A DNA stretch of 43,968 bases from IMG/VR virus record IMGVR_UViG_3300045988_181214; one strand, written 5' to 3'. Positions 83-26,891 of this stretch are shown piece after piece. Position 1 is the first letter of the stretch; each line of letters begins with the position of its first letter. The position numbers and the translations under genes were made by a program. The stretch is from a virus (lineage: Duplodnaviria > Heunggongvirae > Uroviricota > Caudoviricetes). The notes beneath the pieces are model-generated. The model was not told the origin of the DNA, ran no database searches, and saw nothing but the letters and a program-made list of their open reading frames with translations.

Positions 83-158
83 CGCGGCGTGGAGCAGTTG
101 GTAGCTCGCCAGGCTCATAACCTGGAGGTCGCATGTTCGAGTCTTGCCGCCGCAACCA
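83..158 (+). tRNA. tRNA-Met (anticodon CAU), initiator (fMet) type
   Basis: Cloverleaf readable by eye: acceptor CGCGGCG/CGCCGCA with unpaired C1:A72, D arm GAGC-AGTTGGTA-GCTC, anticodon arm CCAGG-CTCATAA-CCTGG (CAT at 116-118), T loop TTCGAGT, encoded CCA. Confidence 0.85.
140..156 (+). repeat. attL core (direct repeat shared with attR)
   Basis: AGTCTTGCCGCCGCAAC, identical to 43408-43424; covers T-arm and acceptor 3' strand of the tRNA. Confidence 0.75.
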
Positions 159-274: not shown

Positions 275-1438
275 ATGACTGCAAAAGAAATTGATTTTTT
301 GAGCTCGCGTGAAATAGTAGGTTTCACGCTGCCTGTGTTGCATACCAAGGGCGGTTACTGGTATGTTGACTTTACTGCCTTTGACCCTGTTTCGGGTCGG
401 ATGAAGCGCAAGAAATATATGCTTAATAGGTACAAGACTGACCACAAGAAGCGTATGATGGGTACCTTGCTTATCCACAATATCACGGCAAAATTGACCG
501 CTGGATGGAATCCTTGGGTGAATGCCGACAAGTCGAGACAATTCACCGAAATACCAATTATCTTTAGTCGTTATCGTGATTATATTAAGTCGATGACCGA
601 CAAAAAGTCGATGAAGGAAAAGACCTCTATCGACTACCTCAGCCGCCTCAAGACTCTGGAGTCTTTCATCACTGAGTGCAAGAGTGTCAAATATGCCTAT
701 CAGATTGACCGTGCCTTCGCCATCGACTTCTTAGACCACCTGATGTATGACCGTGATGTGAGTGCTACCACAAGAAACAACTATCGCTCTTGGCTTGTCT
801 CCTTCGGCACTTGGCTTATGGATAGAAAATATATCAGCGAGAACCCTGCCATCGACATCAGAAACATCGCTCAGAAGGAGAAGTTCAGAGACCCTTTGAC
901 CGAGGGCGCGCTTAAGAAGCTGAAGACTTATCTCTATGATAACAACAGACATTTTCTCTTGGCTTGCCTCTTTGAATATTATACCTTTATCCGACCGAAT
1001 GAGTTGACGCAGATAAGAATCAAAGATGTGTCGATTGCTGACCAGACGGTCTTTATCAGTTCTGCCATCAGCAAGAACCGTAAGGACGGACTTGTGGCAT
1101 TGAACGATGAAATCTTGAAGCTCATGATAGAGCAGAAGATATTTGAGCATCCGGGACATTGTTTTATCTTTGGCAAGGGGTTGAAGCCTGGTGAGGAGCG
1201 AGCACCTTATAACCAACTGAGAGTAGAGTGGGGCAAGATGCGAGATGCTATTGGGTTTCCGAAGGAGTATCAGTTTTATAGCCTGAAGGACACTGGCATC
1301 AGGGATTTGGCGAACGCACAGGGTATCGTGGTCGCCAAGGATCAGGCACGCCACTCTGATATATCTGTGACGAATCGATATATCAAGAACCAGATGAAAG
1401 TGAACGAGGAGACCAAGCACTTCAAAGGTGGGCTTTAG
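275..1438 (+). CDS. int: Tyrosine recombinase / phage integrase
   Basis: 387-aa ORF next to tRNA-att site; C-terminal ARHSDISVTNRYI matches the box II H-x-x-R ... Y catalytic region of tyrosine recombinases. Confidence 0.85.
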   Translation: MTAKEIDFLSSREIVGFTLPVLHTKGGYWYVDFTAFDPVSGRMKRKKYMLNRYKTDHKKRMMGTLLIHNITAKLTAGWNPWVNADKSRQFTEIPIIFSRYRDYIKSMTDKKSMKEKTSIDYLSRLKTLESFITECKSVKYAYQIDRAFAIDFLDHLMYDRDVSATTRNNYRSWLVSFGTWLMDRKYISENPAIDIRNIAQKEKFRDPLTEGALKKLKTYLYDNNRHFLLACLFEYYTFIRPNELTQIRIKDVSIADQTVFISSAISKNRKDGLVALNDEILKLMIEQKIFEHPGHCFIFGKGLKPGEERAPYNQLRVEWGKMRDAIGFPKEYQFYSLKDTGIRDLANAQGIVVAKDQARHSDISVTNRYIKNQMKVNEETKHFKGGL

Positions 1439-1495: not shown

Positions 1496-3394
1496 TTACG
1501 ACATCATATAAAAATATCCTGTATAGATAGGCTCAATCTGGTCATCCTTGACCTCCATCTCTATTTTTTCGCATACGAATTTTTTGTTGTGTATGATGTA
1601 TGTGTGAGATGGGTCAGGGATGGTATCAGATTGAAATTTTACCTGAAGGCAGTTTTTGTTGTCTATCTTGAGACCGCTGTCGTGGAGCTCACCCAAACAG
1701 GTTCCTGCTTGCCAAGCCTTGTTTAGGGATAGGGAAGCCATCAGAACGGTTGGAAACGTGCCAATATTGCCAGGATCGAGCAACTCCATCCTATACATGG
1801 AATTGATGCGGCTGTCAGTCATGAACTGCGGCCATCTGGACTTCTCCCCTACCCATGAGACGTTGCCATTGAGTGGGTGTTCGTATTTTTGAACTTTGCC
1901 AGGCACTATGAAAAACACATTCATGCACTCCTGGTCATCCTCGGAATCATCCAAGGTGGACTCATCATCGATGGCATCCTGTATGGAGACGTAGTTGTAG
2001 CCATCCTCGTCTGTGTCGCTCTCTTTGGCTTCGGCTTCTTTGTCGTTTGGCATAGACAGGAGGCAGCGCCATTCGCTGTGTTTACCCTCAAAAAGAAAAG
2101 ACCTAAAGCTAACATTTTCCACGACCTGTGCTGCTGGGGATATGTTGAGGTCTGTGTAATCATCGGAGGAGTTATCCCTTATCAGTGGCGACCAGACACC
2201 AGCCAACTGCCAGCTCTTGTTGCCGTCGGTATCCTCGACATATATATAATAATCGCTGCCCAGATGACGGATGATGGTGGTGCGCTTCTTCTTCTCGGAC
2301 CATCCACTGGTAGTGGCAGGAAACTGAAAGTTGGTACCAACGGCTGTCTCGAACGAATCGACTATATCGAAATTATCAAAAACTTTTTTGGGAATGACTT
2401 CGTAATCACCTCTGTTGGCTGAGTCGCCTAAGTTGTACTGCAGGTTGGCTGTCGATGAGGTTGAGAACGAACCATCGGCATCGTAGTCGGTGGTGTACTC
2501 GTCGAGTGTCTCTATCTCTACGGAGTCGGCGGATGATAGCTCTGAGGACTTGATGACCTGACAAGTCTTTTTGATGTCGTCGAAGTATATGGTGGCGTTG
2601 AAGAGCTTGCGGAACTCCTCGATGAAGGTGTAGCTAGTCCAATGAGGAAGGGCACGGCGAAGCTCTAGGGTCTTGAAGGCGGAGGCGATGTAGAGCAAGT
2701 TCCATGGAGAAACATCGAGGTCGTTGCGTGTGAGGGTGTAGCCCTCGTAGGCGATGACTCGCTTGAAGATGTACATCAGGTTGGGCTGCACGGCGACGTT
2801 GCTGATGTATGGATCTTTGCTGCCTATGAAATTGCCCGTGCGGTCAACGCCCACGAAATTGGCTATCATGTCGTTGGTCTCGTCTCTGACTGGCATGAAG
2901 CACCACTTGCCCTGCTCGCCCAGAAACTTGCTCTGGTCGGCGACGAGCCTATAGACGGATTGAACCTTGGGGATGTTTTTCCAGCCCTGTGAAAAACCTT
3001 TATCTACCGTATAGCCTGGTGCGGATGCCTTGCCGAAGTCTATCTCGTCGATGTAGTGCTTGGTCATCTTGTCGTTGAACTTGATGCGAGACTTGCCGCC
3101 CACTATCTGAAGCTTTATCTCAGAGTCGGTGACGCTGATGATGGTACCCACGCCAGAGAGTACCAGGCGACCGCTCACGTAAAGCTTGCAATCGTTGTAG
3201 GTCTGGGTGGATTTGGAGACATCGAAGCGGCTCACGTTGTGGAAAACTCGGCGGTTGGGCATTATTGCCATGGGGAAATTGATGTCGTAGGAGTATTCGC
3301 CATCGTCGGTGACGTATTGGTTGGCGTATGTGAGCTTGATGGATTGGCTGGCAGCCGGATAGGCTGCCATGCCATTGATGATGCATGTTATCAT
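1496..3394 (-). CDS. Phage tail protein immediately downstream of TMP (distal tail/tip protein candidate)
   Basis: 632-aa ORF, ATG start, 33 nt after TMP stop; position typical of distal tail or tail-tip proteins; acidic segment near C-terminus. Confidence 0.5.
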   Translation of the reverse strand: MITCIINGMAAYPAASQSIKLTYANQYVTDDGEYSYDINFPMAIMPNRRVFHNVSRFDVSKSTQTYNDCKLYVSGRLVLSGVGTIISVTDSEIKLQIVGGKSRIKFNDKMTKHYIDEIDFGKASAPGYTVDKGFSQGWKNIPKVQSVYRLVADQSKFLGEQGKWCFMPVRDETNDMIANFVGVDRTGNFIGSKDPYISNVAVQPNLMYIFKRVIAYEGYTLTRNDLDVSPWNLLYIASAFKTLELRRALPHWTSYTFIEEFRKLFNATIYFDDIKKTCQVIKSSELSSADSVEIETLDEYTTDYDADGSFSTSSTANLQYNLGDSANRGDYEVIPKKVFDNFDIVDSFETAVGTNFQFPATTSGWSEKKKRTTIIRHLGSDYYIYVEDTDGNKSWQLAGVWSPLIRDNSSDDYTDLNISPAAQVVENVSFRSFLFEGKHSEWRCLLSMPNDKEAEAKESDTDEDGYNYVSIQDAIDDESTLDDSEDDQECMNVFFIVPGKVQKYEHPLNGNVSWVGEKSRWPQFMTDSRINSMYRMELLDPGNIGTFPTVLMASLSLNKAWQAGTCLGELHDSGLKIDNKNCLQVKFQSDTIPDPSHTYIIHNKKFVCEKIEMEVKDDQIEPIYTGYFYMMS

Positions 3395-3427: not shown

Positions 3428-6400
3428 TTATTTGTTTGACTTCATTTTTTGATATTGGCTCCATTGGCGGTCGAAGCCATCGGGGCCGGTGATGACCACG
3501 TATGACTTGATGCCAGCGTTGAGCTGCTCGTTGAGTCTGTCGATGGTGGTATGCACGCTATCGAGGGATGCGCCCATCTGCTCGGTGTCGCCACCTGAGA
3601 CGTTGACCACTGGGGCGACCACGGCTGCGCTGCCTGTGCCCATGGCACGGCTCACGTCTTGGGCGGTGAGCGAGGCGACCGTGTTGTTGCGCTGCGCCAT
3701 ATCGATGAGCTGCAGGGCAGGGAGGAGCTGAGGATTGTTGACGGCGTTGTGGTTGGCGACGAACTCGCCAGCGTGAACCACGCCAGCCTCTTTCTTGTAA
3801 TTGCCAGGACCAGTGAAACCACCCTCGTAATAGCCAGCCGCCTCTGCCTGGTGCTGCTTTTTGATTGTTGCTATCTGGAGCATGCCCGCTGCGGTGGCGA
3901 GACCTGCGGCGATAGGACCAAGGATGTGACCCACCACTGGGATGGCTGCGGCTGATGAGTAGGCGTTGATGGCAGCCATGGCGGTTGAAGCTATGGCTTG
4001 TGCGATCTCTATCTTCATCGCCTTTTTGTTGGCCTTGCTCTTGGCTGCAGCCACCTCTTTGTCTCGCTTCGCCTCGAGACGCTTTTTCTTGGCTGAGTTG
4101 TTGCCAGCGGCAGAAATCTGCTTATCGTAGTTTTTCTCAATCTTGGCGACCTCTAGGTCTGAGCATGCCTGGGAGTAGGCGGAGGCAGCGCCCATCATCG
4201 TGTTGATGCTGCTGAAGGCAGCGCCAGCGATGGAGGCTATCTCTTGATAGGTCTCTTTGTTCATCTGCTTTTTGGCATCCTGGTATTGCTGCTCGCTGAT
4301 TTTATCCTCGTCTCGAAGATTTTTGAGGTTATCGTTGACCATCTTTTGCTGTTGGATGGCTGCGATGGCACCACCAGCGATTGTGGCGAGGTTGTCGCTG
4401 CCCATGGCATTGTTGCTGTCACCATTGCCCTTGGTCATCTTTTTGGCGGTGTCGAGGGCGGTGTTGGCATCCTCCTTGCGCTGCTCATCGGCGGTTGGCT
4501 TGTATGAGGCGTATTTGTTGGCGATGCCCATCTTTGTGCGCTGGTATTCCTCCTCTCTGATGAGACCTGCCTTGTAGATGGCTTCGAGTCCCTGCAGATC
4601 TAGCTGCATCTGCTCTTCGTTGCCGAGCTTGCCGTATTCTTGGCGCAGCTGAAGGAGTTGCTCGTCGTGCTGCTTCTGAAGGTCGTATTTGCGTTGCTGT
4701 TGGGTCAGCTCTCGCTCTTTCTCGATCTGGGCATACTCGTCAGATGAGGAGAGGTAGAGGGCTTGCTTTTTGTTGAGATAGTCCTGGTATGAGAGGAAGA
4801 GAGCCTCGTTGACGGCATCCTCATTGTGATAGAGGTTGGAGTCTTTGTTGTAGTAATCGGCATTGAGCTTCATTTCTTTTTTCTGTCGCTCGGTCTCCAG
4901 GGCTTCGAGGTCGGCGGTCTGCTTTTTCTCGTAGTCGGCGGCGATATTCTCTTTCTCAGCGTTCAATCGCTTGAACTCTTCGCTCTCTGCCTCGCCATAC
5001 TTTTTGAGGATGTCGAGGCGAGCCTGAAGCCCCTGTTCTTTGATATTCTTCATCTTCTCGTTGTATTCGGCGAGTCGAATCTGACCTGTAGCGTAGAGGG
5101 TCTTGGCATCGAGCTCTTCGGCTTGGTTGGCTTTCTTTGCATCGTCTAGCTCTTTTTTCATGTCAGCCTTGCGCTTAGCCTCTGCCTTGCGAGCGGCAGC
5201 CTCACGTTTCTTTTTCTCCTTTTCGGCAGCTTTGCGCTCTTTCTCGGTCATGGTATGACCAGAGGAAGGGGTGGTGTGTGTCTCTGTAGTTGCGCTATTG
5301 TTTAGTAAATTCTTCTTTACAGTCTTGTTGTACTGTTTCTGCAAATTTACGTTTTTCTCTAATTGCTGATTATAGAAATTCTCTTCAGCATTGACTTGCT
5401 TTTGCAGGCTTAGGTTTGCCTGTAGTCTTTGCGTATGAACTTGCTTTTGCTTCTCGTTACTCTTCAGTGCCTCGTTTTGTTCGATGAGCTGACCTGTCCA
5501 TCCATCAGCCACGGCATTGCTCTCATATTGCTTAGGATGAGCCTTGCGCTCAGCATCGACAGCCTTCAGCGAATATCGTATGCGGCTTTCTTTTTGTTTG
5601 AGTTCCAGTTTCTTTTTATTGATTTCCACCTTGCGCTCATAGATGGCTTCTGCCATGGCAGCATTTTCTAGCTCCTTGATGTAGTTTTGGATGGCAATCT
5701 GGTTGTCGTTATACAACTTGCCCTCTTTGGAGATAGAGGCGTGATATTCTGGGACGAGCTTTATCATATTTGCGATAGCTTGCTTTCGCTCGTCAACGGT
5801 ATAGGCATTGGAGTGGATAACCTTGTTGAGCATATCGACCTTGTTGCGCTCATCGAGGGTAGCATCAGACACCTTTTTGGCGAGGCTGGCTTGAGCCTCT
5901 GCCACTGCTCTGTTGTTTTTAGCCTCTTGCGTGTTGTTGCGCATCGCCTCGTTGTAAGATGTTATGGCTTTGTATGCCCCATAGGCAGCCACGCCCACCA
6001 CGGTGATGACTGTGGCGAGGGCAGCCCATGGATTGGTGAGACTTGCTAGGCGTGCTGCCCTCATCACCACGATGTAGCCCTGTATGCCTTTTGTGAGATA
6101 AGCCCATGTGGCTTGCAGTGCCACTAAGGCAGCACGCAAGAGTGTAGATGTAGCGGTATAAGCTTTATCGACAGCTGAAGCGTATTGTACGGCGGCTGTT
6201 TTAATCTTAATGGCGATGGTCTCCTTGTACCAGAGAGCAGTACAAACAGCGATGGCTGTTGACAGCACGGCTATTTGTTTTGCATAGGTGACGGTGAAGG
6301 TGATGAGCGTGGACATGACCTTTATGGTCAGACTGAATGATGTGATGCCATATTTCATGGCAGGGATGAGTTTTTCTCCGAGTTCGATGGTGAGGTCTTG

Positions 6401-7774
6401 GAATCGCTTCTTGGCTTTGTCTAGTTCTGCCTGTACCGTTGTATTCTGGGTATTGAACTCATTGATGACACTGGTACCGTCGGCATACGACTTGGTGGCG
6501 ATGTCTTGCGCCTCTTTCACTTGGTCGAGGTGTGTAGCCACGGCGGAGAGAACGCCCACGGCACGGGTGCCGTTAAGCTGCATCTCCTCAAACATCGGTG
6601 CCATCTCGGCGAAACCTCCCTTTGACTTCATCGCTTGCATGAACTTCATCAAGCCCTCATTGGCGTTGGTCTTCATCAGGTTGGAGAACTCCTTGACCTG
6701 CATGCCCGCTATCTTGGCGAACTTGGCTGGCTCTTGGTACATCTTGGTGATGAGCTGTGAGAAGACGGTGGCGGAAGTCGCCTCCTCTTGCATGTTTTGG
6801 TCGAGGGCAGAGGCGAGACCCATCAGCTGTGCCTGGGTCATGCCGGCCTGGATGCCGACACCTGAGAGGTCGGCGGTGAAATCGACGATGTAGCCAGCGT
6901 TTGCAGATGAGCTTTGTGCCAGCTCATTGACGGCGGAACCTGTGGCGAGCATCGCACCACGAAGGCCTTTGGTCTTATCCTCACCAAACATCTGGGCGAG
7001 CTTGCCGATTTTATCGACCGCCCCCTTGCCGAGGTCATCGCCGAGGGTGACATTGATTTTGTCGGCACCATCAACGAACTCCTCGATCATCTCTTTGCTG
7101 GTGATGCCGAGGCGACCGGCAGAGCCAGCCAGCTCGTTGAGCTGCTCACGAGCTGTGCGGGTATCCATGCGCTTGAAGTCCTCGTTCATCTGATGAACCT
7201 GTTCGTCGGTCTGACCGGTGTATTTGCGCACGTCTGCCATCGACTCCTCCATGTCGGCATAGGCTTGGGCTGCAGCTCTCAAAGTAAGAGTGAGTGTGGT
7301 GAGACTGCCCAGTATCTGGGTGAAGGCACCCCAGTTTTTGTTAAGACCATCCCACATTCTAGAGAACAAACTTCTGGAAGCTTTACCTTCGTCGTTGATG
7401 TGCTGCATCTCTGCTCGCACTTGCTTTAATTGCTTTTGCAGTTTTTTCCATTCGTCTGAGTTGCGCTTGATGGCACCGCTTTTCAACTCTCTGTTGAGAG
7501 CCTTGGCGACTAGTTGCAGCTCCTTGTATGATGCAGAAGAAAGATTGTTGAGAACTTGGTTAACCTTCTCTTGGCTAGTCATGTATGCTTTTGTCTCAGC
7601 CTTTAATCTCTTTATCTGTCGTTCGAGGGCTGTTGTTGACTCGCCCTTTGCATAAGCCTCGTCTCTGGCTTTTTGCACTTCTTTCAGCTTGTTTTGCAAT
7701 TCGTTGAGTTTATCCTTAGCCTCTTTGGTGTCAAGAATAACTCTGCTAACATGGGTATCTGTATTTGTTGCCAT
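3428..7774 (-). CDS. Tail tape measure protein
   Basis: 1448-aa ORF; long Lys/Glu/Gln-rich coiled-coil N-terminal half, central hydrophobic helical block, Ala/Gly-rich C-terminal region. Confidence 0.8.
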   Translation of the reverse strand: MATNTDTHVSRVILDTKEAKDKLNELQNKLKEVQKARDEAYAKGESTTALERQIKRLKAETKAYMTSQEKVNQVLNNLSSASYKELQLVAKALNRELKSGAIKRNSDEWKKLQKQLKQVRAEMQHINDEGKASRSLFSRMWDGLNKNWGAFTQILGSLTTLTLTLRAAAQAYADMEESMADVRKYTGQTDEQVHQMNEDFKRMDTRTAREQLNELAGSAGRLGITSKEMIEEFVDGADKINVTLGDDLGKGAVDKIGKLAQMFGEDKTKGLRGAMLATGSAVNELAQSSSANAGYIVDFTADLSGVGIQAGMTQAQLMGLASALDQNMQEEATSATVFSQLITKMYQEPAKFAKIAGMQVKEFSNLMKTNANEGLMKFMQAMKSKGGFAEMAPMFEEMQLNGTRAVGVLSAVATHLDQVKEAQDIATKSYADGTSVINEFNTQNTTVQAELDKAKKRFQDLTIELGEKLIPAMKYGITSFSLTIKVMSTLITFTVTYAKQIAVLSTAIAVCTALWYKETIAIKIKTAAVQYASAVDKAYTATSTLLRAALVALQATWAYLTKGIQGYIVVMRAARLASLTNPWAALATVITVVGVAAYGAYKAITSYNEAMRNNTQEAKNNRAVAEAQASLAKKVSDATLDERNKVDMLNKVIHSNAYTVDERKQAIANMIKLVPEYHASISKEGKLYNDNQIAIQNYIKELENAAMAEAIYERKVEINKKKLELKQKESRIRYSLKAVDAERKAHPKQYESNAVADGWTGQLIEQNEALKSNEKQKQVHTQRLQANLSLQKQVNAEENFYNQQLEKNVNLQKQYNKTVKKNLLNNSATTETHTTPSSGHTMTEKERKAAEKEKKKREAAARKAEAKRKADMKKELDDAKKANQAEELDAKTLYATGQIRLAEYNEKMKNIKEQGLQARLDILKKYGEAESEEFKRLNAEKENIAADYEKKQTADLEALETERQKKEMKLNADYYNKDSNLYHNEDAVNEALFLSYQDYLNKKQALYLSSSDEYAQIEKERELTQQQRKYDLQKQHDEQLLQLRQEYGKLGNEEQMQLDLQGLEAIYKAGLIREEEYQRTKMGIANKYASYKPTADEQRKEDANTALDTAKKMTKGNGDSNNAMGSDNLATIAGGAIAAIQQQKMVNDNLKNLRDEDKISEQQYQDAKKQMNKETYQEIASIAGAAFSSINTMMGAASAYSQACSDLEVAKIEKNYDKQISAAGNNSAKKKRLEAKRDKEVAAAKSKANKKAMKIEIAQAIASTAMAAINAYSSAAAIPVVGHILGPIAAGLATAAGMLQIATIKKQHQAEAAGYYEGGFTGPGNYKKEAGVVHAGEFVANHNAVNNPQLLPALQLIDMAQRNNTVASLTAQDVSRAMGTGSAAVVAPVVNVSGGDTEQMGASLDSVHTTIDRLNEQLNAGIKSYVVITGPDGFDRQWSQYQKMKSNK

Positions 7775-7796
7775 AATTGAATATTTTATTTTATGG

Positions 7797-7804
7797 CAAA
7801 GGTA
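7797..7804 (-). promoter_or_regulatory. -7 promoter element (TAccTTTG) for the TMP operon
   Basis: Minus-strand TTACCTTTGCC 23 nt upstream of TMP ATG, just after a terminator hairpin. Confidence 0.45.
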
Positions 7805-7808
7805 ATAA

Positions 7809-7850
7809 GGAGGAAAACATAATAAAAATACGAGACCGTATGTATTGCGG
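7809..7850 (-). terminator. Intrinsic terminator hairpin (13-bp stem) with T-tract
   Basis: AAATACGAGACCG / CGGTCTCGTATTT inverted repeat; on the minus strand followed by TTTTTATTAT; the 20-mer ATAATAAAAATACGAGACCG is repeated at 10321-10340. Confidence 0.55.
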
Positions 7851-7858
7851 TCTCGTAT

Positions 7859-8200
7859 TTACTTGGTTATCTCTTGCTCTTTTTTAAAGAACTCGTATGC
7901 AAGATTGTTTGCATCCCAAACAAGATATTTCTTGTTGGTGTTTCTGAGTGTCTGTTTATCACCTGTTATGGAGTTTGCTATCGTGACGCAGAAGAATCTG
8001 CCTCGCTTTACGATTTCGGTTGCCGTATTGTTTGGCGATGCCAGTCTTATAGGCTCGTCAAAATTCTCATCAAAAGTATCAAACAATGGTTCGGAAGCCA
8101 CTGTGGCTGGGCAAGAACTATTGCCAAGCTTGTCGAGACCTTTGAGGAGTGCAACTGTTATAATCGCTAGTATCCAGCATCCAAATATAGTCGTAATCAT
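7859..8200 (-). CDS. Small membrane/secreted protein (hypothetical)
   Basis: 113-aa ORF from first ATG (track ORF 7859-8398 begins at an alternative start); N-terminal hydrophobic helix MITTIFGCWILAIITVALL; promoter motif 30 nt upstream. Confidence 0.5.
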   Translation of the reverse strand: MITTIFGCWILAIITVALLKGLDKLGNSSCPATVASEPLFDTFDENFDEPIRLASPNNTATEIVKRGRFFCVTIANSITGDKQTLRNTNKKYLVWDANNLAYEFFKKEQEITK

Positions 8201-8229
8201 AATTTGTAAGTTTATTATTATCTTTGTTG

Positions 8230-8237
8230 CAAATTTA
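8230..8237 (-). promoter_or_regulatory. -7 promoter element (TAaaTTTG)
   Basis: Minus-strand TAAATTTGCAAC ~30 nt upstream of ATG at 8200. Confidence 0.35.
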
Positions 8238-8422
8238 ATAATAATATTTGGAATATGCAAGTATTTTGTGTTAAATCTTTGATTTGTTTTGCGGTATGGT
8301 GGAAAAATATTATATTTGCAGTGGCAATTTAATTTTAGAAAGTATGAATAAAGATTTTGCTTTAATATTGGTAAACATAATATGCGCCTTAACGGCATTT
8401 GTTTGTATGATAATCACTATTG

Positions 8423-8779
8423 TTATTTCATTAGTGAGATTATAATAGTAATACACATAGATGCGATTGTAATAATCGTGCAAATGATATTGATATATTC
8501 TTTGTATTCTTTCAGAAGTGTCAGTCTCTCCTGTCTTCTCTTCTGTTTGTTATAGCCTTTCTTGGCAGCATTCTCCCCTTGTGGTGTCAGCTTATAATAA
8601 GCTTCTCCCCACTCATAAACAAGTCCCTCGTCTTGAAGTGATTGTAGAACATCGTATGGCTCAATGTCATATCCATACGTATCATTTATAGCACTGTGTA
8701 CATCGTCTTTGTTAGGACTACCTTCTAAGAACTGGCTTAAAATGAAATCTGCGATTTCTATTTGCTTTTTAGTCATCAT
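8423..8779 (-). CDS. Hypothetical protein with C-terminal transmembrane anchor
   Basis: 118 aa from tandem ATGs (track ORF starts at GTG 8863); C-terminal INIICTIITIASMCITIIISL hydrophobic helix. Confidence 0.5.
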   Translation of the reverse strand: MMTKKQIEIADFILSQFLEGSPNKDDVHSAINDTYGYDIEPYDVLQSLQDEGLVYEWGEAYYKLTPQGENAAKKGYNKQKRRQERLTLLKEYKEYINIICTIITIASMCITIIISLMK

Positions 8780-8793
8780 AATCAAATAAAAAC

Positions 8794-8831
8794 GGCTCGT
8801 GCATCGGGAGGGCAGTCCTTCAGCACGAGCC
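8794..8831 (-). terminator. Leader hairpin plus U-tract between promoter and start codon (terminator/attenuator-like)
   Basis: 9-bp stem GGCTCGTGC / GCACGAGCC, 20-nt loop; on the minus strand followed by GTTTTTATTTG just before ATGATG. Confidence 0.35.
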
Positions 8832-8914
8832 ATTAACAGCTGTATATCTTTATGTCTTGCCACTCATGAGACCTGCCCGAATCATGTTTGACATCATTGT
8901 CTTTAAATATGGTG

Positions 8915-8922
8915 CAAAGATA
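8915..8922 (-). promoter_or_regulatory. -7 promoter element (TAtcTTTG)
   Basis: Minus-strand TATCTTTGCACC between the spanin-like gene and the 8423-8779 gene. Confidence 0.4.
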
Positions 8923-8962
8923 GCGCTTTTATCTGAATGCACCAAATGATTTTACGAAAACT

Positions 8963-9574
8963 TTATTTCACCACCTCTATGTATCTCGAGTAATCAATCT
9001 TGGAGTGGGGATTGTGGCTGACTATCTGCACCTGATAGCCCTTGGTGCCCCATCGCCACCAGAGGAACTTGTGGCGGTAGGTGCGGCTCACGATGGTCGT
9101 CAGGCTGTCTCGAGACGAGTACTGGCACTCTCGCTTGGGGATGTCGATATGGAGGGAGAGCCATTGGTCTCGGTAGGTGTAGATGGAATCGGGGATGCCG
9201 GAACCAGCCACGGCGGCGGTCGGTTCGGGCGTGAGATAGACCGTATCGGCGGTGGTTGACGAAACTGTGTGGATAGACTGCACATCTTTGAGCCGCACTT
9301 TGAGGTCTTTGATGAGCTTGGTATCGGCGAGGTGGAGCTTTTGCAGCTCGTCGTATTTCGACTGAAGGGCGTTGAATATGGCGACATTGAGAGTGTCTCT
9401 CACGTTGGCATATTCAATGTCGTAGTTGAGGTTGGCTACGTTGTAGCTCTGTCGGTCGAGGTCTGCCTGAAGCTGCTCGCACTTGTTGGCGGAGTGTATG
9501 AATGCGACTGCGGTCACGATGAGCAGGGCTGCCAGAAGCTGGATGATAATCTTGGGTGTAATCTTTTTTGTCAT
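8963..9574 (-). CDS. Membrane-anchored coiled-coil protein, possible lysis accessory (spanin-like)
   Basis: 203 aa from ATG; N-terminal signal-anchor KIIIQLLAALLIVTAVAFI then coiled-coil; directly downstream of the endolysin. Confidence 0.4.
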   Translation of the reverse strand: MTKKITPKIIIQLLAALLIVTAVAFIHSANKCEQLQADLDRQSYNVANLNYDIEYANVRDTLNVAIFNALQSKYDELQKLHLADTKLIKDLKVRLKDVQSIHTVSSTTADTVYLTPEPTAAVAGSGIPDSIYTYRDQWLSLHIDIPKRECQYSSRDSLTTIVSRTYRHKFLWWRWGTKGYQVQIVSHNPHSKIDYSRYIEVVK

Positions 9575-9603
9575 TGTCTTTTTGAAAATGATTGGTGAGT
9601 GAG

Positions 9604-10029
9604 TTATGCGATGTCTTTGTATTCGTCGATGGCATTGAAGCAAGGACACATCTTCTTCCATTTGGACTTGTCCTTGCCCCAGATGTCACGATGGCCCATT
9701 ATCTGGGCATCTGGGAATTGTTGCTTCAGTTTGTGGAGTAGCAAAACGAGGGCGTCTTTTTGCTCTGGTGTGCGGTTGTCGATAGCCTTGCCCTTAGCGT
9801 CGATGCCACCGATATAGGCGACGTTGATGGCTGTGGAGTTGTAGCCCTGCACGCCGTTGCTCACCTTTTCGATGGCTAGGAGTTGGTGGATGCCGCCGTT
9901 TGGGGCGATGACGTAGTGATAACCTGGATTGGTCCAGCCCTTGCGGCGGAACTCTGCCTTGAGGTCGTCGATGGACTGGCTTTGCGACCCTGCGGTGCAG
10001 TGAACGAAAATGCGTTTAATCTGTCTCAT
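9604..10029 (-). CDS. N-acetylmuramoyl-L-alanine amidase (endolysin)
   Basis: 141 aa from ATG; motifs IFVHCTAG, GYHYVI, NSTAINVAYIGG, HRDI...CPC typical of amidase_2/PGRP-type lysins. Confidence 0.75.
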   Translation of the reverse strand: MRQIKRIFVHCTAGSQSQSIDDLKAEFRRKGWTNPGYHYVIAPNGGIHQLLAIEKVSNGVQGYNSTAINVAYIGGIDAKGKAIDNRTPEQKDALVLLLHKLKQQFPDAQIMGHRDIWGKDKSKWKKMCPCFNAIDEYKDIA

Positions 10030-10270
10030 TATTTTGCTTGTTATGATTGAACAATTTGTTTTTGATGTTGTCGAACTTGGCATCGATGGCGATGGCTACG
10101 CCGAAGATGGAGCCGGCATACATGAGCGACTGGGCAAAGTACCAGAGCACATTGTCGGTGACATCACGAGCCTGGGAGGTGAAGTAACTGATGTAAACCA
10201 GTATGATGGCGAGGAGGAGCACGGCGATGGCTGAGCCGTATTGTATCCATTCTTTAGTATTTCTCTGCAT
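10016..10270 (-). CDS. Holin
   Basis: 84-aa protein with two hydrophobic helices and a charged C-terminus; overlaps the start of the amidase gene. Confidence 0.6.
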   Translation of the reverse strand: MQRNTKEWIQYGSAIAVLLLAIILVYISYFTSQARDVTDNVLWYFAQSLMYAGSIFGVAIAIDAKFDNIKNKLFNHNKQNNETD

Positions 10271-10297
10271 GGTGAATCTTGTTTTTGTTTTACAGTG

Positions 10298-10305
10298 CAA
10301 AGATA
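10298..10305 (-). promoter_or_regulatory. -7 promoter element (TAtcTTTG) for the lysis cassette
   Basis: Minus-strand TTATCTTTGCACT 28 nt upstream of holin ATG. Confidence 0.45.
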
Positions 10306-10320
10306 AGAAGGGTAGGGTGA

Positions 10321-10358
10321 TAATAAAAATACGAGACCGCCCTAACGATCTCGTATTA
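10321..10358 (-). terminator. Intrinsic terminator hairpin with T-tract
   Basis: Stem ATACGAGA / TCTCGTAT with a 12-nt loop, followed on the minus strand by TTTTTATTAT; shares an identical 20-mer with 7809-7828. Confidence 0.5.
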
Positions 10359-10370
10359 TATGTTTAACTG

Positions 10371-10778
10371 TTAGACCTCTCTTGAGAGAATCTCCTTGGC
10401 TATCTCTTTGGCCTCTTTGCGCCACGACTGATAAGCCTCGAACTCTGCCTCGTGAGTCTCGTCGCCATCGCCACGGTTGGCTAGGATGGCCTCTACCTGG
10501 TTTTGGCTGTATCGGGTGCGAACCAAACCAGCGGTGAAATCGTCGTAGGTGGCTGCGGTCGCCTGAATCTTGGTCGAGCCATCAGGCTCTGTGCCCTCAT
10601 AGCTGTAAGCAGTGACACCCTCGGAGTTTTCATCTTCTGACTGCTCTGAGGTATCGGAAGAGCCTGTAGCGGCCTCAGGGTGATAGTTTTCAACTTTCTG
10701 CTCACCAGTGTAGAGCAGATAATGGTTATCGTCATATTTGACGAAGCTCTTGCGAGCTAGATAATACTTCTTGTTCAT
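10371..10778 (-). CDS. Hypothetical acidic protein co-transcribed downstream of the DGR RT
   Basis: 135-aa ORF, ATG start 7 nt after RT stop; Asp/Glu-rich; no recognisable motif. Confidence 0.5.
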   Translation of the reverse strand: MNKKYYLARKSFVKYDDNHYLLYTGEQKVENYHPEAATGSSDTSEQSEDENSEGVTAYSYEGTEPDGSTKIQATAATYDDFTAGLVRTRYSQNQVEAILANRGDGDETHEAEFEAYQSWRKEAKEIAKEILSREV

Positions 10779-10784
10779 AATTGA

Positions 10785-12359
10785 TCACGTGAATTTATAG
10801 AACTTCTTTTTGAATTTATTGTGAAGCTCTGCGACCACGGTGGAGAAGGGTAGCTCATCACGACAGAAGTCGTTGAGGGCTTGGTCTATCAAGATCTTGG
10901 AGCCTGTATAGAGGTAGTGCTCCAGAGGTTGCCATACCTCGGTGCCGTCTGGCTCCAGGTGGTCGATGATGCGATAGCGTAGGGAGAGGCGCTTCTTGGG
11001 CACCTCTTTGGTGACCATGTGGGTGGAGCCGTCCGGGGCGGTCTCCTCTTGCTGGATGGTCTCCTTCTCTATCACCGAGTCATCGACCTTGTAGTCTATC
11101 ACTTGAACGAGGAACTTGTTCTCGTCCTGACCCTCACGGCAGATGATGTCCTCGATGGACTGCTGCTGTGATTTCTCCATACCGTCAAAAGGCACGCGCG
11201 CACGGCGAGCCTTGACGAGTTTACCGAATCTTTCCATACCGATTTTCTTATATAAGTTTTTAGAGTTTGCGTGGATGCCCAGACCTAGGCGAGAGGCTGC
11301 CTTGAGCTGTATCTGGCGGTCTGTGAAGCCCGCCTTGCGTAAGTTGGCGATCTGTCTGCAGAGGTCGTGCTTGAACCGCTTGCGCAACAGGGCGTGGTCG
11401 GCGTAGATGATCTGACCGCATAAGTCGATGCCATCGCAGGTGCGGTGGATACCCCAAGACTTATTGATGGATAGGTGCCAGTCACGGGCGAGGTGCATCA
11501 CGGCAAGCTCTGCCATCAGCCTGAGGAACACCTTATCCTCGTGGAGGATGTAGATGTTGTCCATGAAGCGGTAATAATGGCGAAGACCTTGGCGGCAGAA
11601 GCGCTCGAACCTATCGTTGAGCGACTTCACTCCCCCGCATAGCAGTTGAGCTTGCTGCTGAGTGCGACAGGTAACGAGCATGTCGCTCACGTAGCGAGCC
11701 TGCCAGTAACGGAACTTGTCGGTGTCTTGGAGAATGTCGAAGCATCGGAGTGCCAGGTAATCGAAGCGGGCGAGGAAGAGCTGACCCAAGAGTTGGGCGA
11801 GCTTGACGCCGAGCACGATGCCTGGATTGAAGCTATCGACCACCTCGTCGATGAAGGCGAGGAGCTTGCGGTCTTTGATCTTGCGGCGATATTCACTTTT
11901 GAGAAGAGCGTGGTCTATGCTCTGAAAATAATGGTGAATATCCATGGGCAAGCAGTAGAAGGTATCTTGCTGTGGCGAGTTGAAGATGTCTCGCTTGACA
12001 AGATTATAGAAATAATGGGTGCCCTTGCCCTTGGAACCAGCCGGACTGTGGCTGTAGAGTGTCTTGCGAAGGTTATCCTCTACAGGTTGCAGGGCAGCGT
12101 GCTGGATGACGTGGTCGATAACGGGCAGCTTGTTGACTTGGCGATGTTTTGGATAGTCGATATCTTTGGCGACATAGGCTGAGGTATGCCAAGTTTGTTG
12201 GGTGTAAGCATCGAGCATGCGTCCGATGTTATGGTCTAGGTTTGCCTCGAATTTTTGGACCGCACGGCGAGACATCTTTTGTCGGGCGTAGTCATAGAAT
12301 GCCCGACGAAAGTTGTCTAGTGTCTCGACCTGTAGCGATATGTTGCCAAACCTTTTCAT
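10785..12359 (-). CDS. Reverse transcriptase (DGR-type), catalytic motif non-canonical
   Basis: 524 aa from first ATG (track ORF starts at GTG 12428); RT motif 2 SPAGSKGKGTHY, motif A LPMDIHHYFQSIDH, motif B-like GIVLGVKLAQLLGQLFLARFD; sits 208 bp downstream of the template repeat. Confidence 0.8.
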   Translation of the reverse strand: MKRFGNISLQVETLDNFRRAFYDYARQKMSRRAVQKFEANLDHNIGRMLDAYTQQTWHTSAYVAKDIDYPKHRQVNKLPVIDHVIQHAALQPVEDNLRKTLYSHSPAGSKGKGTHYFYNLVKRDIFNSPQQDTFYCLPMDIHHYFQSIDHALLKSEYRRKIKDRKLLAFIDEVVDSFNPGIVLGVKLAQLLGQLFLARFDYLALRCFDILQDTDKFRYWQARYVSDMLVTCRTQQQAQLLCGGVKSLNDRFERFCRQGLRHYYRFMDNIYILHEDKVFLRLMAELAVMHLARDWHLSINKSWGIHRTCDGIDLCGQIIYADHALLRKRFKHDLCRQIANLRKAGFTDRQIQLKAASRLGLGIHANSKNLYKKIGMERFGKLVKARRARVPFDGMEKSQQQSIEDIICREGQDENKFLVQVIDYKVDDSVIEKETIQQEETAPDGSTHMVTKEVPKKRLSLRYRIIDHLEPDGTEVWQPLEHYLYTGSKILIDQALNDFCRDELPFSTVVAELHNKFKKKFYKFT

Positions 12360-12567
12360 AAGCGGTGTAATGTCTGTGTTGAACGGTGTATAAACTGTGT
12401 ATAGTCTGAATCGTCTGCTTTTGTACACTTGATAACCTTCGACCGGATGACCGTGTTGTCATCATCTACCAGCTGTCTTATTAATGTGTATGTATCGCCA
12501 TGGGGCGAGGATTGACCCTGTAATCTCGAAGTGGGAGCAAACGACCCACGAAGAGATATGTCTGTAA

Positions 12568-12689
12568 GTTGAGGGCGGCGCCGTAGTTCACATTGGCATT
12601 CGAGACAGCATTGTTCACGTTGAGCGTTGAAAGACCGCATTGACCACCATTGTTAGCGTTAGCACCACGAAGGCAGACACGAAAACCGG
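12568..12689 (-). repeat. DGR template repeat (TR), noncoding
   Basis: 122 bp matching 12979-13100 at constant offset 411 with no indels; 9 mismatches, all at T on the plus strand (A on the transcribed strand); Asn (AAC)-rich in the target frame. Confidence 0.85.
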
Positions 12690-12723
12690 CACCTAGGGTC
12701 ACACCCTGGTATCATAACCGCCG

Positions 12724-12731
12724 CAAAGGTA
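12724..12731 (-). promoter_or_regulatory. -7 promoter element (TAccTTTG) upstream of TR-RT
   Basis: Minus-strand ATTTTTATTACCTTTGCGG ~35 nt upstream of the TR. Confidence 0.45.
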
Positions 12732-12927
12732 ATAAAAATAATCGGTATGGAAGCATGTCAAAGAGCTTTTTTGATGTTTTTATTGATATTTTTTTTGTCG
12801 CCGACCGCCACAGGCGGTAACTTAAGGCGAGCTACGCTCGCTGGGTGCTTCGGCTTCGCCGAGGGTGCTCAGGTCTCTTTTGCACACCCAGTAAACCGAT
12901 GCACACCCAGCAAACTGATGTAGTCTC

Positions 12928-14400: not shown

Positions 14401-14422
14401 AATAAAAATTATATTTAATCGA

Positions 14423-20155: not shown

Positions 20156-20163
20156 CAAAGATA
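20156..20163 (-). promoter_or_regulatory. -7 promoter element (TAtcTTTG)
   Basis: Minus-strand CCTATCTTTGCATC 17 nt upstream of ATG at 20139. Confidence 0.35.
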
Positions 20164-20191
20164 GGTATGATGAGAACTATATAAAAATACG

Positions 20192-25518: not shown

Positions 25519-25526
25519 CAAAGATA
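25519..25526 (-). promoter_or_regulatory. -7 promoter element (TAtcTTTG)
   Basis: Minus-strand CCTATCTTTGCATC 24 nt upstream of ATG at 25495. Confidence 0.45.
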
Positions 25527-25540
25527 GGAAGGAAGGGGAG

Positions 25541-26885: not shown

Positions 26886-26891
26886 TGACAG

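What the first reader, a model, noticed from the sequence alone, without database searches (positions are those of the whole stretch)
3428..10300. Non-canonical gene order: lysis cassette directly upstream of the tape measure gene, head genes upstream of terminase
Read along the minus strand the order is primase, protease-scaffold, capsid, terminase small and large subunits, cargo, structural and fibre genes, DGR, holin-amidase, then TMP and tail tip. The TMP is preceded by a terminator and promoter rather than by tail-chaperone genes with a frameshift site, and the head module precedes terminase. The genome appears modularly rearranged, or some functional assignments (capsid, portal) are wrong.
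Basis: inference. Interest (0 to 1): 0.4.

Follow-up and report, generated by a model that had tools for sequence, protein, structure and literature searches.

The report
Lineage-typical shuffled gene order in prophage
The odd gene order is real, but it is the normal, conserved layout of a large lineage of tailed phages of Bacteroidota, whose late genes form at least five separately promoted blocks, so it is not a rearrangement or an annotation error in this genome.

Summary
The window holds a complete ~43.3-kb prophage in a tRNA-Met gene (att cores 140-156 and 43408-43424). The reported order is confirmed.

- **Assignments hold.** ORF 34954-36072 has an HK97-fold capsid model. ORF 22744-24150 belongs to a portal family. 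ORF 3428-7774 is a tape measure protein (PF10145).
- **Odder than reported.** A tail-tube-fold gene (34324-34920) follows the capsid gene, upstream of terminase and about 26 kb from the tape measure gene.
- **Terminator and promoter confirmed.** A hairpin terminator and a Bacteroides-type promoter precede the tape measure gene. I found no chaperone pair and no slippery site.
- **Not specific to this genome.** The holin-amidase-DUF6549-tape measure-tip-integrase order holds in about 55 of 64 related viral contigs. The protease-to-terminase order holds in nearly all of 72.
- **Published relatives share the backbone.** These include Polaribacter phage Leef_1 (an imaged siphovirus with endolysin just upstream of its tape measure gene), Flavobacterium phage 6H and Porphyromonas prophages.

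The motif GTATTTTTAT-N17-TANCTTTG occurs exactly five times, once before each late block (none expected by chance). More distant relatives permute these blocks.

Verdict: a new member of a known kind, of modest interest.

The parts
83..158 (+). Host tRNA-Met gene. Its 3' end (140-156) is the left att core.
   Evidence: ARAGORN and Rfam tRNA. The 17-nt exact repeat AGTCTTGCCGCCGCAAC occurs at 140-156 and at 43408-43424.
275..1438 (+). Tyrosine integrase, on the strand opposite to all other phage genes
   Evidence: Partial NCBIfam XerC/XerD-type matches, all far below the curated cut-offs. The position next to the tip gene is conserved in relatives.
1496..3394 (-). 632-aa gene after the tape measure gene. 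Presumed tail tip or hub; function not shown.
   Evidence: No family or PDB match. It always follows the tape measure gene in relatives. Leef_1 and 6H have genes of similar size in this position.
3428..7774 (-). Tail tape measure protein, 1448 aa
   Evidence: PF10145 1.1e-14 and phrog_25337 1.7e-51 plus nine other tape measure PHROGs. Homologous to annotated tape measure proteins of Flavobacterium phages.
7797..7831 (-). Late promoter unit 5 (GTATTTTTAT-N17-TACCTTTG), driving the tape measure and tip genes
   Evidence: Conserved upstream of the tape measure gene in 53 of 63 related loci.
7826..7860 (-). Intrinsic-terminator-like hairpin (15-bp stem plus T-run) ending the small-ORF region
   Evidence: Relatives keep a hairpin here with different stem sequences.
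7859..8200 (-). Moron-like ORF B: a small protein with an N-terminal hydrophobic helix, its own TAAATTTG box and low GC
   Evidence: Sequence and promoter. GC 0.26-0.42. Present in only part of the relatives, at 40-59% identity. Its promoter region resembles the early promoter region 42813-42874.
8423..8779 (-). Moron-like ORF A: a small protein with a C-terminal hydrophobic tail and its own TATCTTTG box near 8916-8923
   Evidence: At this site only in the closest relatives. Homologues sit in the cargo site after terminase in other relatives.
8963..9661 (-). DUF6549 protein, third gene of the lysis cassette. A spanin-like role is inferred only.
   Evidence: PF20186 4.8e-38 and phrog_14010. Homologues occur in 77 Bacteroidales phage records.
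9604..10083 (-). N-acetylmuramoyl-L-alanine amidase (endolysin). The likely start is the Met at about 10029.
   Evidence: PF01510 1.1e-16 and phrog_822 1e-43. Homologues start at MRKIKRIF.
10016..10273 (-). Holin-like small protein with two hydrophobic segments. The listed TTG start at 10300 lies inside the promoter.
   Evidence: phrog_8278, of unknown function. Sequence. Position directly before the amidase. The holin role is inferred.
10298..10357 (-). Hairpin terminator (10328-10357) plus late promoter unit 4 (10298-10332), driving the lysis cassette
   Evidence: Present upstream of the holin gene in 49 of 50 relatives. A recombination breakpoint against L012 and L046 falls here.
10371..14448 (-). 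Diversity-generating retroelement: target gene 12928-14448 with VR 12982-13100, TR 12571-12689, RT-17 RNA 12411-12512, reverse transcriptase 10785-12428, accessory ORF 10371-10778
   Evidence: phrog_1423 2e-52 and phrog_5302 2e-58. The 119-nt repeat. All 7 mismatches at TR adenines. Rfam RF03020 at 59.9 bits.
16660..20139 (-). 1159-aa fibre- or spike-like gene, first gene of late unit 3
   Evidence: phrog_22546 1.4e-96, of unknown function. The corresponding gene in Leef_1 is annotated as a tail spike.
20156..20190 (-). Late promoter unit 3
20192..22757 (-). Four connector-sized genes: 152 aa (neck-like), 176 aa, 265 aa and 281 aa (DUF6712, in the adaptor position)
   Evidence: PF20459 1.4e-13. 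Weak hhalign match of the 152-aa family to SPP1 gp16.1 (P 32%). Leef_1 and Porphyromonas phages have an annotated adaptor after the portal. Roles are inferred.
22744..24150 (-). Portal protein. The true start is probably Met58 of the listed ORF.
   Evidence: 26% identity, E 4e-23, to the Leef_1 portal. hhalign P 93.8% to a Porphyromonas phage portal. Homologues are about 465 aa. 3 of 62 family members hit PF04860 (best 1.9e-6) and 1 hits PF05133.
24434..25495 (-). 353-aa conserved gene, first gene of late unit 2. Function unknown.
   Evidence: No family match. It always precedes the portal gene.
25519..25553 (-). Late promoter unit 2
   Evidence: Present upstream of this gene in 65 of 65 relatives.
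25673..30152 (-). Variable cargo region between terminase and late unit 2: phosphoribosyltransferase, RadC, DUF6941 and small ORFs
   Evidence: PF04002 1.2e-35, PF00156 and PF22091. Gene content varies among the 72 relatives.
30500..32101 (-). Terminase large subunit
   Evidence: phrog_2 1e-4. 34% identity over 98% of its length, E 4e-81, to the annotated terminase of Microcystis phage Mea-Yong924-1, plus Porphyromonas 'terminase LSU' genes. A P-loop GGRGIGKS and a DIDEA motif are visible in the sequence.
32098..33489 (-). Three conserved genes before terminase: 209 aa, 93 aa (in the small-terminase position) and a 191-aa PLD-like nuclease
   Evidence: Weak phrog_16945 and PLDc_2 matches. The Microcystis phage annotates the ORF at the same position and of the same size (93 aa) as the small terminase subunit; no sequence similarity to our 93-aa ORF was detected. 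Order conserved.
33464..34339 (-). 291-aa acidic protein that always follows the tube gene. Function unknown; a chaperone role is speculative.
   Evidence: No family match. Part of the conserved block.
34324..34920 (-). Tail-tube-fold protein, proposed major tail protein
34954..36072 (-). Major capsid protein, HK97 fold
   Evidence: AlphaFold2 pLDDT 78, pTM 0.74. Foldseek PDB: P2/P4 procapsid 6.5e-10, phiRSA1, GTA, HK97.
36065..37090 (-). ClpP-type head maturation protease with a C-terminal coiled coil (scaffold-like)
   Evidence: PF00574 4e-14 and phrog_94 1.5e-29.
37114..37148 (-). Late promoter unit 1 (one mismatch to the motif), driving protease through terminase
   Evidence: Present in 54 of 66 relatives.
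38989..41973 (-). Primase/TOPRIM-like replication protein
   Evidence: 36% identity over 945 aa to Leef_1 gp27 (annotation).
43408..43424 (+). Right att core, followed by host DNA (a TetR-like ORF by my reading of the sequence, not scanned)

Best explanation
This is an intact temperate siphovirus-type prophage of a gut Bacteroidales host, probably Prevotella-like. It belongs to the broad lineage that includes Helgolandviridae, Duneviridae and the Porphyromonas gingivalis siphophages.

In this lineage the morphogenetic genes are not one co-linear late operon. Here they are split into at least five transcription units:
1. protease, capsid, tail tube, four small genes, terminase;
2. the 353-aa gene, portal, connector genes;
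3. fibre and DGR;
4. holin, amidase, DUF6549;
5. tape measure and tip.

Each unit starts with the same promoter architecture: GTATTTTTAT, 17 nt, then the Bacteroides -7 box TAnCTTTG. Several also begin with a hairpin terminator that closes the preceding unit.

Because each block carries its own start and stop signals, block order is not constrained. The blocks, and cargo inserted between them, can be exchanged or permuted by recombination at the junctions. The lysis cassette upstream of the tape measure gene is a long-standing slot in this layout. The two small ORFs between them are later insertions with their own promoters.

**Shown:** the gene identities, the conserved order, the repeated motif and its positions.
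**Inferred:** that the motifs are active late promoters, and that independent promoters are what permits permutation.
For: **Identities**
- Capsid has the HK97 fold; the tube fold is supported.
- Portal, tape measure and amidase, protease, terminase.

**Conservation**
- The holin-amidase-DUF6549-tape measure-tip-integrase order holds in about 55 of 64 loci, at 70-100% tape measure identity.
- Two sub-lineages at about 52% tape measure identity (L044/L047) keep a lysis cassette in the same slot but with an M15-type peptidase instead of Amidase_2.
- The protease-to-terminase order holds in nearly all of 72 loci.
- The protease-capsid-tube-p291 block is contiguous in 38 of 40 Bacteroidales genome loci, at 34-50% capsid identity.

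**Published relatives**
- Leef_1 runs primase, protease..., terminase, portal, adaptor, spike, endolysin, neck, tape measure, tip, integrase. It has siphoviral morphology (PMC8776804).
- 6H, Porphyromonas phage020a and Mea-Yong924-1 share the backbone, with lysis genes placed elsewhere where an endolysin is annotated.

**Promoters**
- The motif occurs exactly 5 times, all on the gene strand and directly before the first gene of a block, with 0 expected in 100 shuffles.
- In relatives there are 230 occurrences on the gene strand and 0 on the other strand, lying before the tape measure (53/63), holin (49/50), 353-aa (65/65) and protease (54/66) genes.
- Hairpin stems differ among relatives while the motif is kept.
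- TAnnTTTG is the documented -7 consensus of the Bacteroides primary sigma factor (PMC7366714).

**Modularity**
- A sharp identity drop against L046 and L012 falls at 10250-10400, which is the junction unit.
- Permuted block orders occur in L153-157, L162, L166, L167, L170 and L174.
Against: - No transcript data exist, so the promoters and terminators are consensus-level predictions.
- The upstream element GTATTTTTAT is rarely found in the distant genome loci, so the 'same promoter' argument holds only within the closer family.
- The Leef_1 and Porphyromonas ORFs in the same position show no detectable similarity to it.
- No tail assembly chaperone was identified, which leaves a gap in the tail module.
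- The holin and spanin roles are positional guesses.
- Several permuted examples come from metagenome-assembled genomes and could include misassemblies, although three independent loci share one variant and four share another.
Confidence: 0.8

Rival explanations
1. The order reflects a recent rearrangement, an assembly chimera or a nested second element specific to this sequence. An example would be a tail or lysis module captured from another phage.
For: - Mosaicism is real: contig 178699 has a 100% identical tape measure gene but a 92% identical terminase gene.
- There is a breakpoint at the DGR/lysis junction.
- GC drops to 0.26-0.42 in 7700-8900.
Against: - The same order recurs in dozens of independently assembled contigs, in 40 bacterial genome loci and in cultured phages with complete 37-47 kb genomes.
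- Only one integrase and one pair of att cores bound the element.
- The low-GC stretch covers only the two small ORFs, not the lysis or tape measure genes.
Confidence: 0.03
2. Key genes are mis-assigned, and a correct annotation would restore the canonical terminase-portal-protease-capsid-tail-lysis order.
For: - Most ORFs have no Pfam or PHROG match.
- A published survey reports that GenBank capsid annotations in Duneviridae and Helgolandviridae are erroneous (PMC9855967).
Against: - Independent evidence fixes protease, capsid, tube, terminase, portal, amidase and tape measure at their present positions.
- With these seven anchors, no reassignment of the remaining unknown ORFs can give the canonical order.
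Confidence: 0.03
3. The layout is conserved because it is selected for expression dosage, not merely tolerated. The high-copy virion proteins (protease/scaffold, capsid, tube) are grouped in the first and strongest late unit. The low-copy parts (portal, connectors, fibre, tape measure, tip) sit in later units, with the lysis genes placed among them.
For: - The protease-capsid-tube-p291 block stays contiguous in 38 of 40 distant loci, and is the only block seen to do so, while other blocks move around it.
- The tube gene is separated from every other tail gene.
Against: - No expression data exist.
- Terminase, a low-copy enzyme, is in the same unit in most members.
- The promoter of unit 1 is the one that deviates from the motif.
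- This is a refinement of the best explanation rather than an alternative to it.
Confidence: 0.3
4. The large gene 3428-7774 is not a tail-length ruler but an ejected or internal protein of a short-tailed virion. That would explain the lack of chaperone genes and its separation from the other tail genes.
For: - No chaperone pair and no frameshift site were found.
- Only one gene follows it.
- It has its own operon.
Against: - It matches PF10145 and ten tape measure PHROGs over most of its length.
- A tail-tube-fold protein is encoded.
- Leef_1, whose annotated TP901-family tape measure gene occupies the same position, and Ingeline (terminase relative) have long non-contractile tails (PMC8776804).
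Confidence: 0.04

Closest known systems
Polaribacter phage Leef_1 (Helgolandviridae, Leefvirus; NC_062750)
   Same: The block order is the same: primase, ClpP protease, capsid-position gene..., large terminase, small genes, portal, adaptor, large spike or fibre, endolysin cassette, tape measure, large tip genes, then integrase on the opposite strand. Homologous portal (26%), terminase (27%), primase (36%) and integrase. It is a temperate siphovirus of a Bacteroidota host.
   Different: It has a marine Flavobacteriia host, 30% GC and a 37.5-kb genome. It has no DGR. Its endolysin is an N-acetylmuramidase, not an amidase. A 125-aa 'neck' gene lies between the lysis genes and the tape measure gene. 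Two large genes, not one, follow the tape measure gene. The ORF in the tube position shows no detectable similarity.
Flavobacterium phage 6H and relatives (Duneviridae, Unahavirus; NC_021867)
   Same: It has the protease block upstream of terminase, a cargo site after terminase, tape measure plus tip genes at the far end next to the integrase, and homologous terminase, tape measure and amidase genes.
   Different: Its endolysin lies upstream of the protease, not upstream of the tape measure gene. It has no DGR. Its cargo is on the opposite strand.
Porphyromonas gingivalis prophages such as phage020a_SJD2 (BK068101; Matrishin et al. 2023, PMC10367356)
   Same: The order is primase, prohead protease, major capsid, 217-aa ORF..., large terminase, portal, adaptor..., neck, tape measure, tip genes, integrase. 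The portal family is related (hhalign P 93.8%) and the terminase is 26% identical.
   Different: The endolysin follows the tail genes. Two small ORFs (118 aa and 30 aa) directly precede the tape measure gene and could be a chaperone pair. The capsid gene is much longer (670 aa).
Canonical lambda/HK97/SPP1 late-gene order
   Same: The protein parts are the same kinds: ClpP-type or HK97-type protease, HK97-fold capsid, tube-fold tail protein, TP901-type tape measure, Amidase_2 endolysin. HK97 also has a moron (gp15) with a terminator directly upstream of its tape measure gene.
   Different: HK97 and SPP1 run terminase, portal, protease or scaffold, capsid, connectors, tube, frameshifted chaperone, tape measure, tip as one contiguous series. 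Here protease, capsid and tube precede terminase, the portal follows it, the tube gene is about 26 kb from the tape measure gene, the lysis genes sit inside the tail region, and no chaperone frameshift was found.

Membership tests
Helgolandviridae/Duneviridae-like lineage of Bacteroidota siphophages ('group 5' of PMC9855967) | Shared homologous core proteins (portal, terminase and others) with named members | tested here: met
   Portal 26% (E 4e-23), terminase 27% (E 1e-37) and primase 36% to Leef_1. Terminase 26.6% to 6H. About 25% identity over the N-terminal half of the tape measure protein to Duneviridae phages.
Helgolandviridae/Duneviridae-like lineage of Bacteroidota siphophages ('group 5' of PMC9855967) | Family-level demarcation by proteome clustering (VirClust or VICTOR distance thresholds used in PMC8776804) | not tested
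   No whole-proteome clustering was run. At 26-36% identity in a few core proteins, the phage is probably outside both named families, so I claim only lineage-level relatedness.
Helgolandviridae/Duneviridae-like lineage of Bacteroidota siphophages ('group 5' of PMC9855967) | Long non-contractile tail (siphovirus morphology) | not testable with these tools
   Indirect only: a tape measure protein, a tube-fold protein and no sheath-like match in any scan.
Helgolandviridae/Duneviridae-like lineage of Bacteroidota siphophages ('group 5' of PMC9855967) | Bacteroidota host | tested here: met
   Homologous prophages occur in Phocaeicola, Bacteroides, Prevotellaceae, Muribaculaceae and Dysgonomonas genomes. 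A Prevotella MAG carries a 61% identical tube protein. Bacteroides-type TAnnTTTG promoters are present. The phage is integrated in a tRNA-Met gene.
Canonical co-linear late operon (lambda/HK97/SPP1 type) | Terminase, portal, protease or scaffold, and capsid contiguous in that order | tested here: not met
   Protease and capsid (36065-37090, 34954-36072) are upstream of terminase (30500-32101). The portal (22744-24150) is 6 kb downstream of terminase. Compare HK97 and SPP1.
Canonical co-linear late operon (lambda/HK97/SPP1 type) | Tube gene, frameshifted chaperone pair and tape measure gene adjacent | tested here: not met
   The tube-fold gene is at 34324-34920 and the tape measure gene at 3428-7774. 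No slippery heptamer with a -1 extension was found. The ORFs before the tape measure gene are moron-like.
Tape measure protein (TP901-type) | PhageMin_Tail core domain in a very long, largely helical protein encoded just upstream of the tail tip genes | tested here: met
   PF10145 at 55 bits against a 33-bit cut-off. phrog_25337 matches residues 12-954. A conserved 632-aa gene follows.
Moron (HK97 gp15-type insertion) | Own promoter and terminator, deviant base composition, patchy presence among relatives | tested here: met
   Own TAnnTTTG boxes and a terminal hairpin. GC 0.26-0.42 against 0.50-0.58 in neighbouring genes. ORF A is at this site only in the closest relatives, and ORF B only in a subset. 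Expression in the lysogen was not tested.
Diversity-generating retroelement | Reverse transcriptase plus a template/variable repeat pair that differs only at template adenines | tested here: met
   phrog_1423 2e-52. The 119-nt repeats are 94% identical. 7 of 7 mismatches are at TR adenines. The RT-17 RNA motif scores 59.9 bits.

The most novel reading that the evidence does not exclude
In this Bacteroidota siphophage lineage the single late operon has been dissolved into autonomous cassettes, each bounded by a terminator and a promoter. These cassettes are freely permuted and exchanged. The conserved junction (hairpin plus GTATTTTTAT-N17-TAnCTTTG) would serve two roles: a late promoter read with a phage-specific factor, and a homology linker for module swapping. 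In this reading the structural genes are sorted by copy number (protease, capsid and tube together) rather than by assembly pathway, and the tape measure protein is made without a frameshifted chaperone.
Probability: 0.3. Interest if true: 0.5.

Novelty: new member of a known kind. Interest (0 to 1): 0.3.

Why it matters
- **Annotation tools.** Synteny-based tools assume the lambda/HK97 order. This lineage is very common in human-gut and animal-gut metagenomes: 684 capsid homologues and 2387 portal homologues were found. It violates that order in a consistent way, so its capsid, tube and portal genes are mostly left as 'hypothetical'. Knowing the lineage layout lets these genes be named by position.
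- **Transcription.** The five-copy promoter motif gives a testable handle on late transcription in Bacteroidales phages, which is poorly understood.
- **This window.** For this window the result is mainly a clarification. Nothing is broken or rearranged.

Tried and rejected
- **Family scans.** PHROGs, Pfam and NCBIfam gave nothing for the capsid, tube, portal, 353-aa, 291-aa, 632-aa and connector ORFs as single sequences.
- **PDB sequence searches.** Single sequences and profiles (A1, A2, A3) found nothing meaningful.
- **hhalign against reference proteins.** Comparing family alignments with single HK97 and SPP1 proteins was uninformative even for the capsid and terminase positive controls, so the negatives there mean little. 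A first attempt at all-against-all timed out.
- **Nucleotide searches.** Searching E. coli genomes gave no match, and searching the phage collection gave only short or DGR-region matches.
- **Capsid tblastn against phage records.** No match.
- **Exact late-promoter motif in the 40 distant genome loci.** Mostly absent, so it cannot be used to explain permutations there.
- **Sigma-70 consensus scan.** Not relevant to this host type, and it gave no enrichment.
- **Ideas considered and dropped.** A myovirus (no sheath-like match in any scan; relatives are siphoviruses). The 12356-12640 ORF as a gene (it overlaps the RT-17 RNA and part of the TR, so it is probably spurious).

Full report
**What the window is**

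All long ORFs from 1496 to 42819 lie on the minus strand. An integrase-like ORF (275-1438) and a small regulator-like ORF (42941-43318) are on the plus strand. A tRNA-Met gene sits at 83-158. Its last 17 nt, AGTCTTGCCGCCGCAAC, recur at 43408-43424, followed by host-like sequence that includes a TetR-like ORF (TetR-like is my reading of the sequence, not a scan). The window therefore holds one complete prophage of about 43.3 kb, integrated in a tRNA gene. One related contig (L010) shows the circular junction: tape measure, tip, integrase, regulator, primase.

**Checking the assignments**

| Gene | Coordinates | Evidence |
|---|---|---|
| Tape measure | 3428-7774 | PF10145 above its cut-off, and ten tape measure PHROGs over most of its length |
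| Amidase | 9604-10083 | Clear Amidase_2 endolysin |
| Head protease | 36065-37090 | ClpP-type, with a coiled-coil tail |
| Capsid | 34954-36072 | No family match, but a 38-sequence alignment gave a model (pLDDT 78, pTM 0.74) whose best PDB matches are all HK97-fold capsids: P2/P4 6.5e-10, phiRSA1, GTA, HK97 |
| Large terminase | 30500-32101 | 34% identity over 98% of its length to an annotated large terminase; more weakly related to Porphyromonas, Flavobacterium, Cellulophaga and Polaribacter phage genes |
| Portal | 22744-24321 | 26% identity to the Leef_1 portal; hhalign P 93.8% to a Porphyromonas phage portal |

For the portal, homologues from an exhaustive HMMER search were scanned one by one. 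Three hit Pfam Phage_portal (best 1.9e-6) and one hit SPP1_portal. Homologues are about 465 aa, so the real start is probably Met58, at 24150.

I read it as the major tail protein. The caveat is that the fold is shared with tail terminators and distal tail proteins. This makes the order less canonical than reported, because the tube gene is upstream of terminase and about 26 kb from the tape measure gene.

**The region upstream of the tape measure gene**

- The gene is preceded by a 15-bp-stem hairpin with a T-run (7826-7860), then by TACCTTTG about 30 nt before the ATG. TAnnTTTG is the published -7 consensus of the Bacteroides primary sigma factor (PMC7366714).
- Between the lysis cassette and this unit lie two small ORFs, 8423-8779 and 7859-8200. 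Each has its own TAnnTTTG box, and GC falls to 0.26-0.42 against 0.50-0.58 nearby.
- These two ORFs are present in only some relatives, which is how morons behave.
- A scan of every minus-strand gene found no XXXYYYZ site with a -1 frame extension, so no lambda-type chaperone pair is evident anywhere in the genome.

**Is the order peculiar to this genome? No.**

- *Around the tape measure gene.* 64 viral contigs carry tape measure homologues at 41-100% identity. About 55 of them show holin, amidase, DUF6549, sometimes a small ORF, tape measure, tip, then integrase on the other strand.
- *Same slot, different enzyme.* Two sub-lineages at about 52% identity keep a lysis cassette in the same slot, but with an M15-type peptidase instead of the amidase. 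Another sub-lineage at 41-50% has holin, amidase, a 152-aa neck-like gene and then tape measure. A slot that stays occupied while the enzyme is replaced points to a conserved position, not an accident.
- *Around terminase.* In nearly all of 72 contigs the order is primase, two small genes, protease, capsid, tube, p291, p191, p93, p209 (p191/p93 not detected in some), terminase, variable cargo, three small genes, the 353-aa gene, portal, connectors.
- *In bacterial genomes.* In 40 loci from Phocaeicola, Bacteroides, Prevotellaceae, Muribaculaceae, Alloprevotella, Dysgonomonas and Paludibacter, capsid identity is 25-50%. The protease-capsid-tube-p291 block is contiguous in 38 of them; the exceptions are a truncated contig and a 25%-identity outlier.

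**Published relatives**

- *Polaribacter phage Leef_1* (Helgolandviridae) is a cultured phage with siphoviral morphology (PMC8776804). Its order is primase, ClpP protease..., terminase, portal, adaptor, tail spike, endolysin, a 233-aa gene, a small 'neck' gene, tape measure, two large genes, integrase. This is the same order, including lysis genes just ahead of the tape measure gene.
- *Flavobacterium phage 6H* (Duneviridae) has the same backbone, but its endolysin is upstream of the protease.
- *Porphyromonas phage020a* has the same backbone, with the endolysin after the tail genes.
- *Microcystis phage Mea-Yong924-1* has protease, capsid..., small terminase, large terminase..., tape measure, integrase, with the portal upstream of the protease.
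- A structural survey already grouped Duneviridae and Helgolandviridae together, and noted erroneous capsid annotations in them (PMC9855967).

I found no paper that discusses the gene order itself, but it is visible in the public records.

**How it probably works**

The repeat search showed that the unit before the tape measure gene is one of a family. The motif GTATTTTTAT-N17-TANCTTTG, with at most one mismatch, occurs exactly five times in the window. All five are on the minus strand, and each lies directly before the first gene of a block:

| Motif | First gene of the block |
|---|---|
| 37114-37148 | protease |
| 25519-25553 | 353-aa gene |
| 20156-20190 | fibre gene |
| 10298-10332 | holin |
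| 7797-7831 | tape measure |

None was found in 100 shuffles.

In related contigs there are 230 occurrences on the gene strand and none on the other strand. They lie before the tape measure (53 of 63), holin (49 of 50), 353-aa (65 of 65) and protease (54 of 66) genes. The hairpin stems in front of the motif differ between relatives while the motif is kept.

I infer five co-regulated late units, each with its own start signal and some with the stop signal of the preceding unit. That would remove the need for co-linearity. Two observations are consistent with this:

- Against contigs L046 and L012, identity is about 100% through the fibre and DGR block. It falls to 64-80% from about 10250-10400 onward, which is exactly the junction unit.
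- More distant prophages show the same blocks in other orders. Terminase lies upstream of the protease block in L162, L170, L174, L166 and L167. Tape measure and tip lie directly upstream of the protease block in L153-156. Connectors lie directly after the tube block in L157.

One block, protease-capsid-tube-p291, stays contiguous in 38 of the 40 loci. This suggests, without proving, that the high-copy virion proteins are kept together for expression.

**What remains open**

- No tail assembly chaperone, distal tail protein or tail terminator has been identified.
- The promoter and terminator calls are sequence-level only.
- The holin and spanin-like roles are positional inferences.

**Verdict**

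The layout is modular and non-canonical, but it is the conserved architecture of a widespread Bacteroidota siphophage lineage. It is neither a rearrangement nor a mis-annotation of this genome.
- It is a new member of a known kind and of modest interest. Its practical value is for annotating a very abundant group of gut prophages.

Noticed in passing
window 10371-14448: A complete DGR. The 119-nt TR (12571-12689) and VR (12982-13100, at the 3' end of the 506-aa tail-protein-like target) differ at 7 positions, all TR adenines. An Rfam RT-17 RNA motif (12411-12512, 59.9 bits) lies between the TR and the reverse transcriptase gene. The listed ORF 12356-12640 overlaps the RT-17 RNA and part of the TR and is probably spurious.
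   Followed up: partly
window 7859-8200 and 8211-8261; compare 42813-42874: The small membrane-anchored ORF just upstream of the tape measure gene has a promoter region 82-83% similar to the early or divergent promoter region next to the regulator genes, so it may be expressed in the lysogen. HK97 has a moron (gp15) in the equivalent position. From memory, gp15 is a superinfection exclusion protein.
   Followed up: partly
window 25673-30152; loci L067-L138: The stretch between terminase and the next late unit is a cargo hotspot. Relatives carry different combinations of a phosphoribosyltransferase-like gene, RadC, a three-gene set that includes DUF6941, or a homologue of the small ORF 8423-8779, which in this window lies near the tape measure gene. 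The 0.9-kb stretch 29602-30499 has no convincing gene.
   Followed up: partly
window 10250-10400 compared with L012 and L046: Identity to two related contigs drops from about 100% to 64-80% exactly at the terminator-promoter unit between the DGR and the lysis cassette. This suggests that these units act as recombination junctions.
   Followed up: partly
L044 and L047, about 7300-9400; L058-L064, about 8200-9400: Related phages keep a lysis cassette in the slot upstream of the tape measure gene but with a different endolysin type (an M15-like peptidase). In another sub-lineage a 152-aa neck-like gene sits between the amidase and the tape measure gene.
   Followed up: partly
window 37650-38246 and 37151-37570: Two genes of unknown function (198 aa and 139 aa) are conserved directly upstream of the protease block in almost all relatives, and they move with or around terminase in the permuted relatives. 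The first has its own promoter box. They are candidates for late-gene regulators, but nothing supports this yet.
   Followed up: no
L140 (BK068101) 27068-27538: In the Porphyromonas relative, two small ORFs (118 aa and 30 aa) directly precede the tape measure gene and might be a split or frameshifted chaperone pair. No counterpart exists in this window.
   Followed up: no
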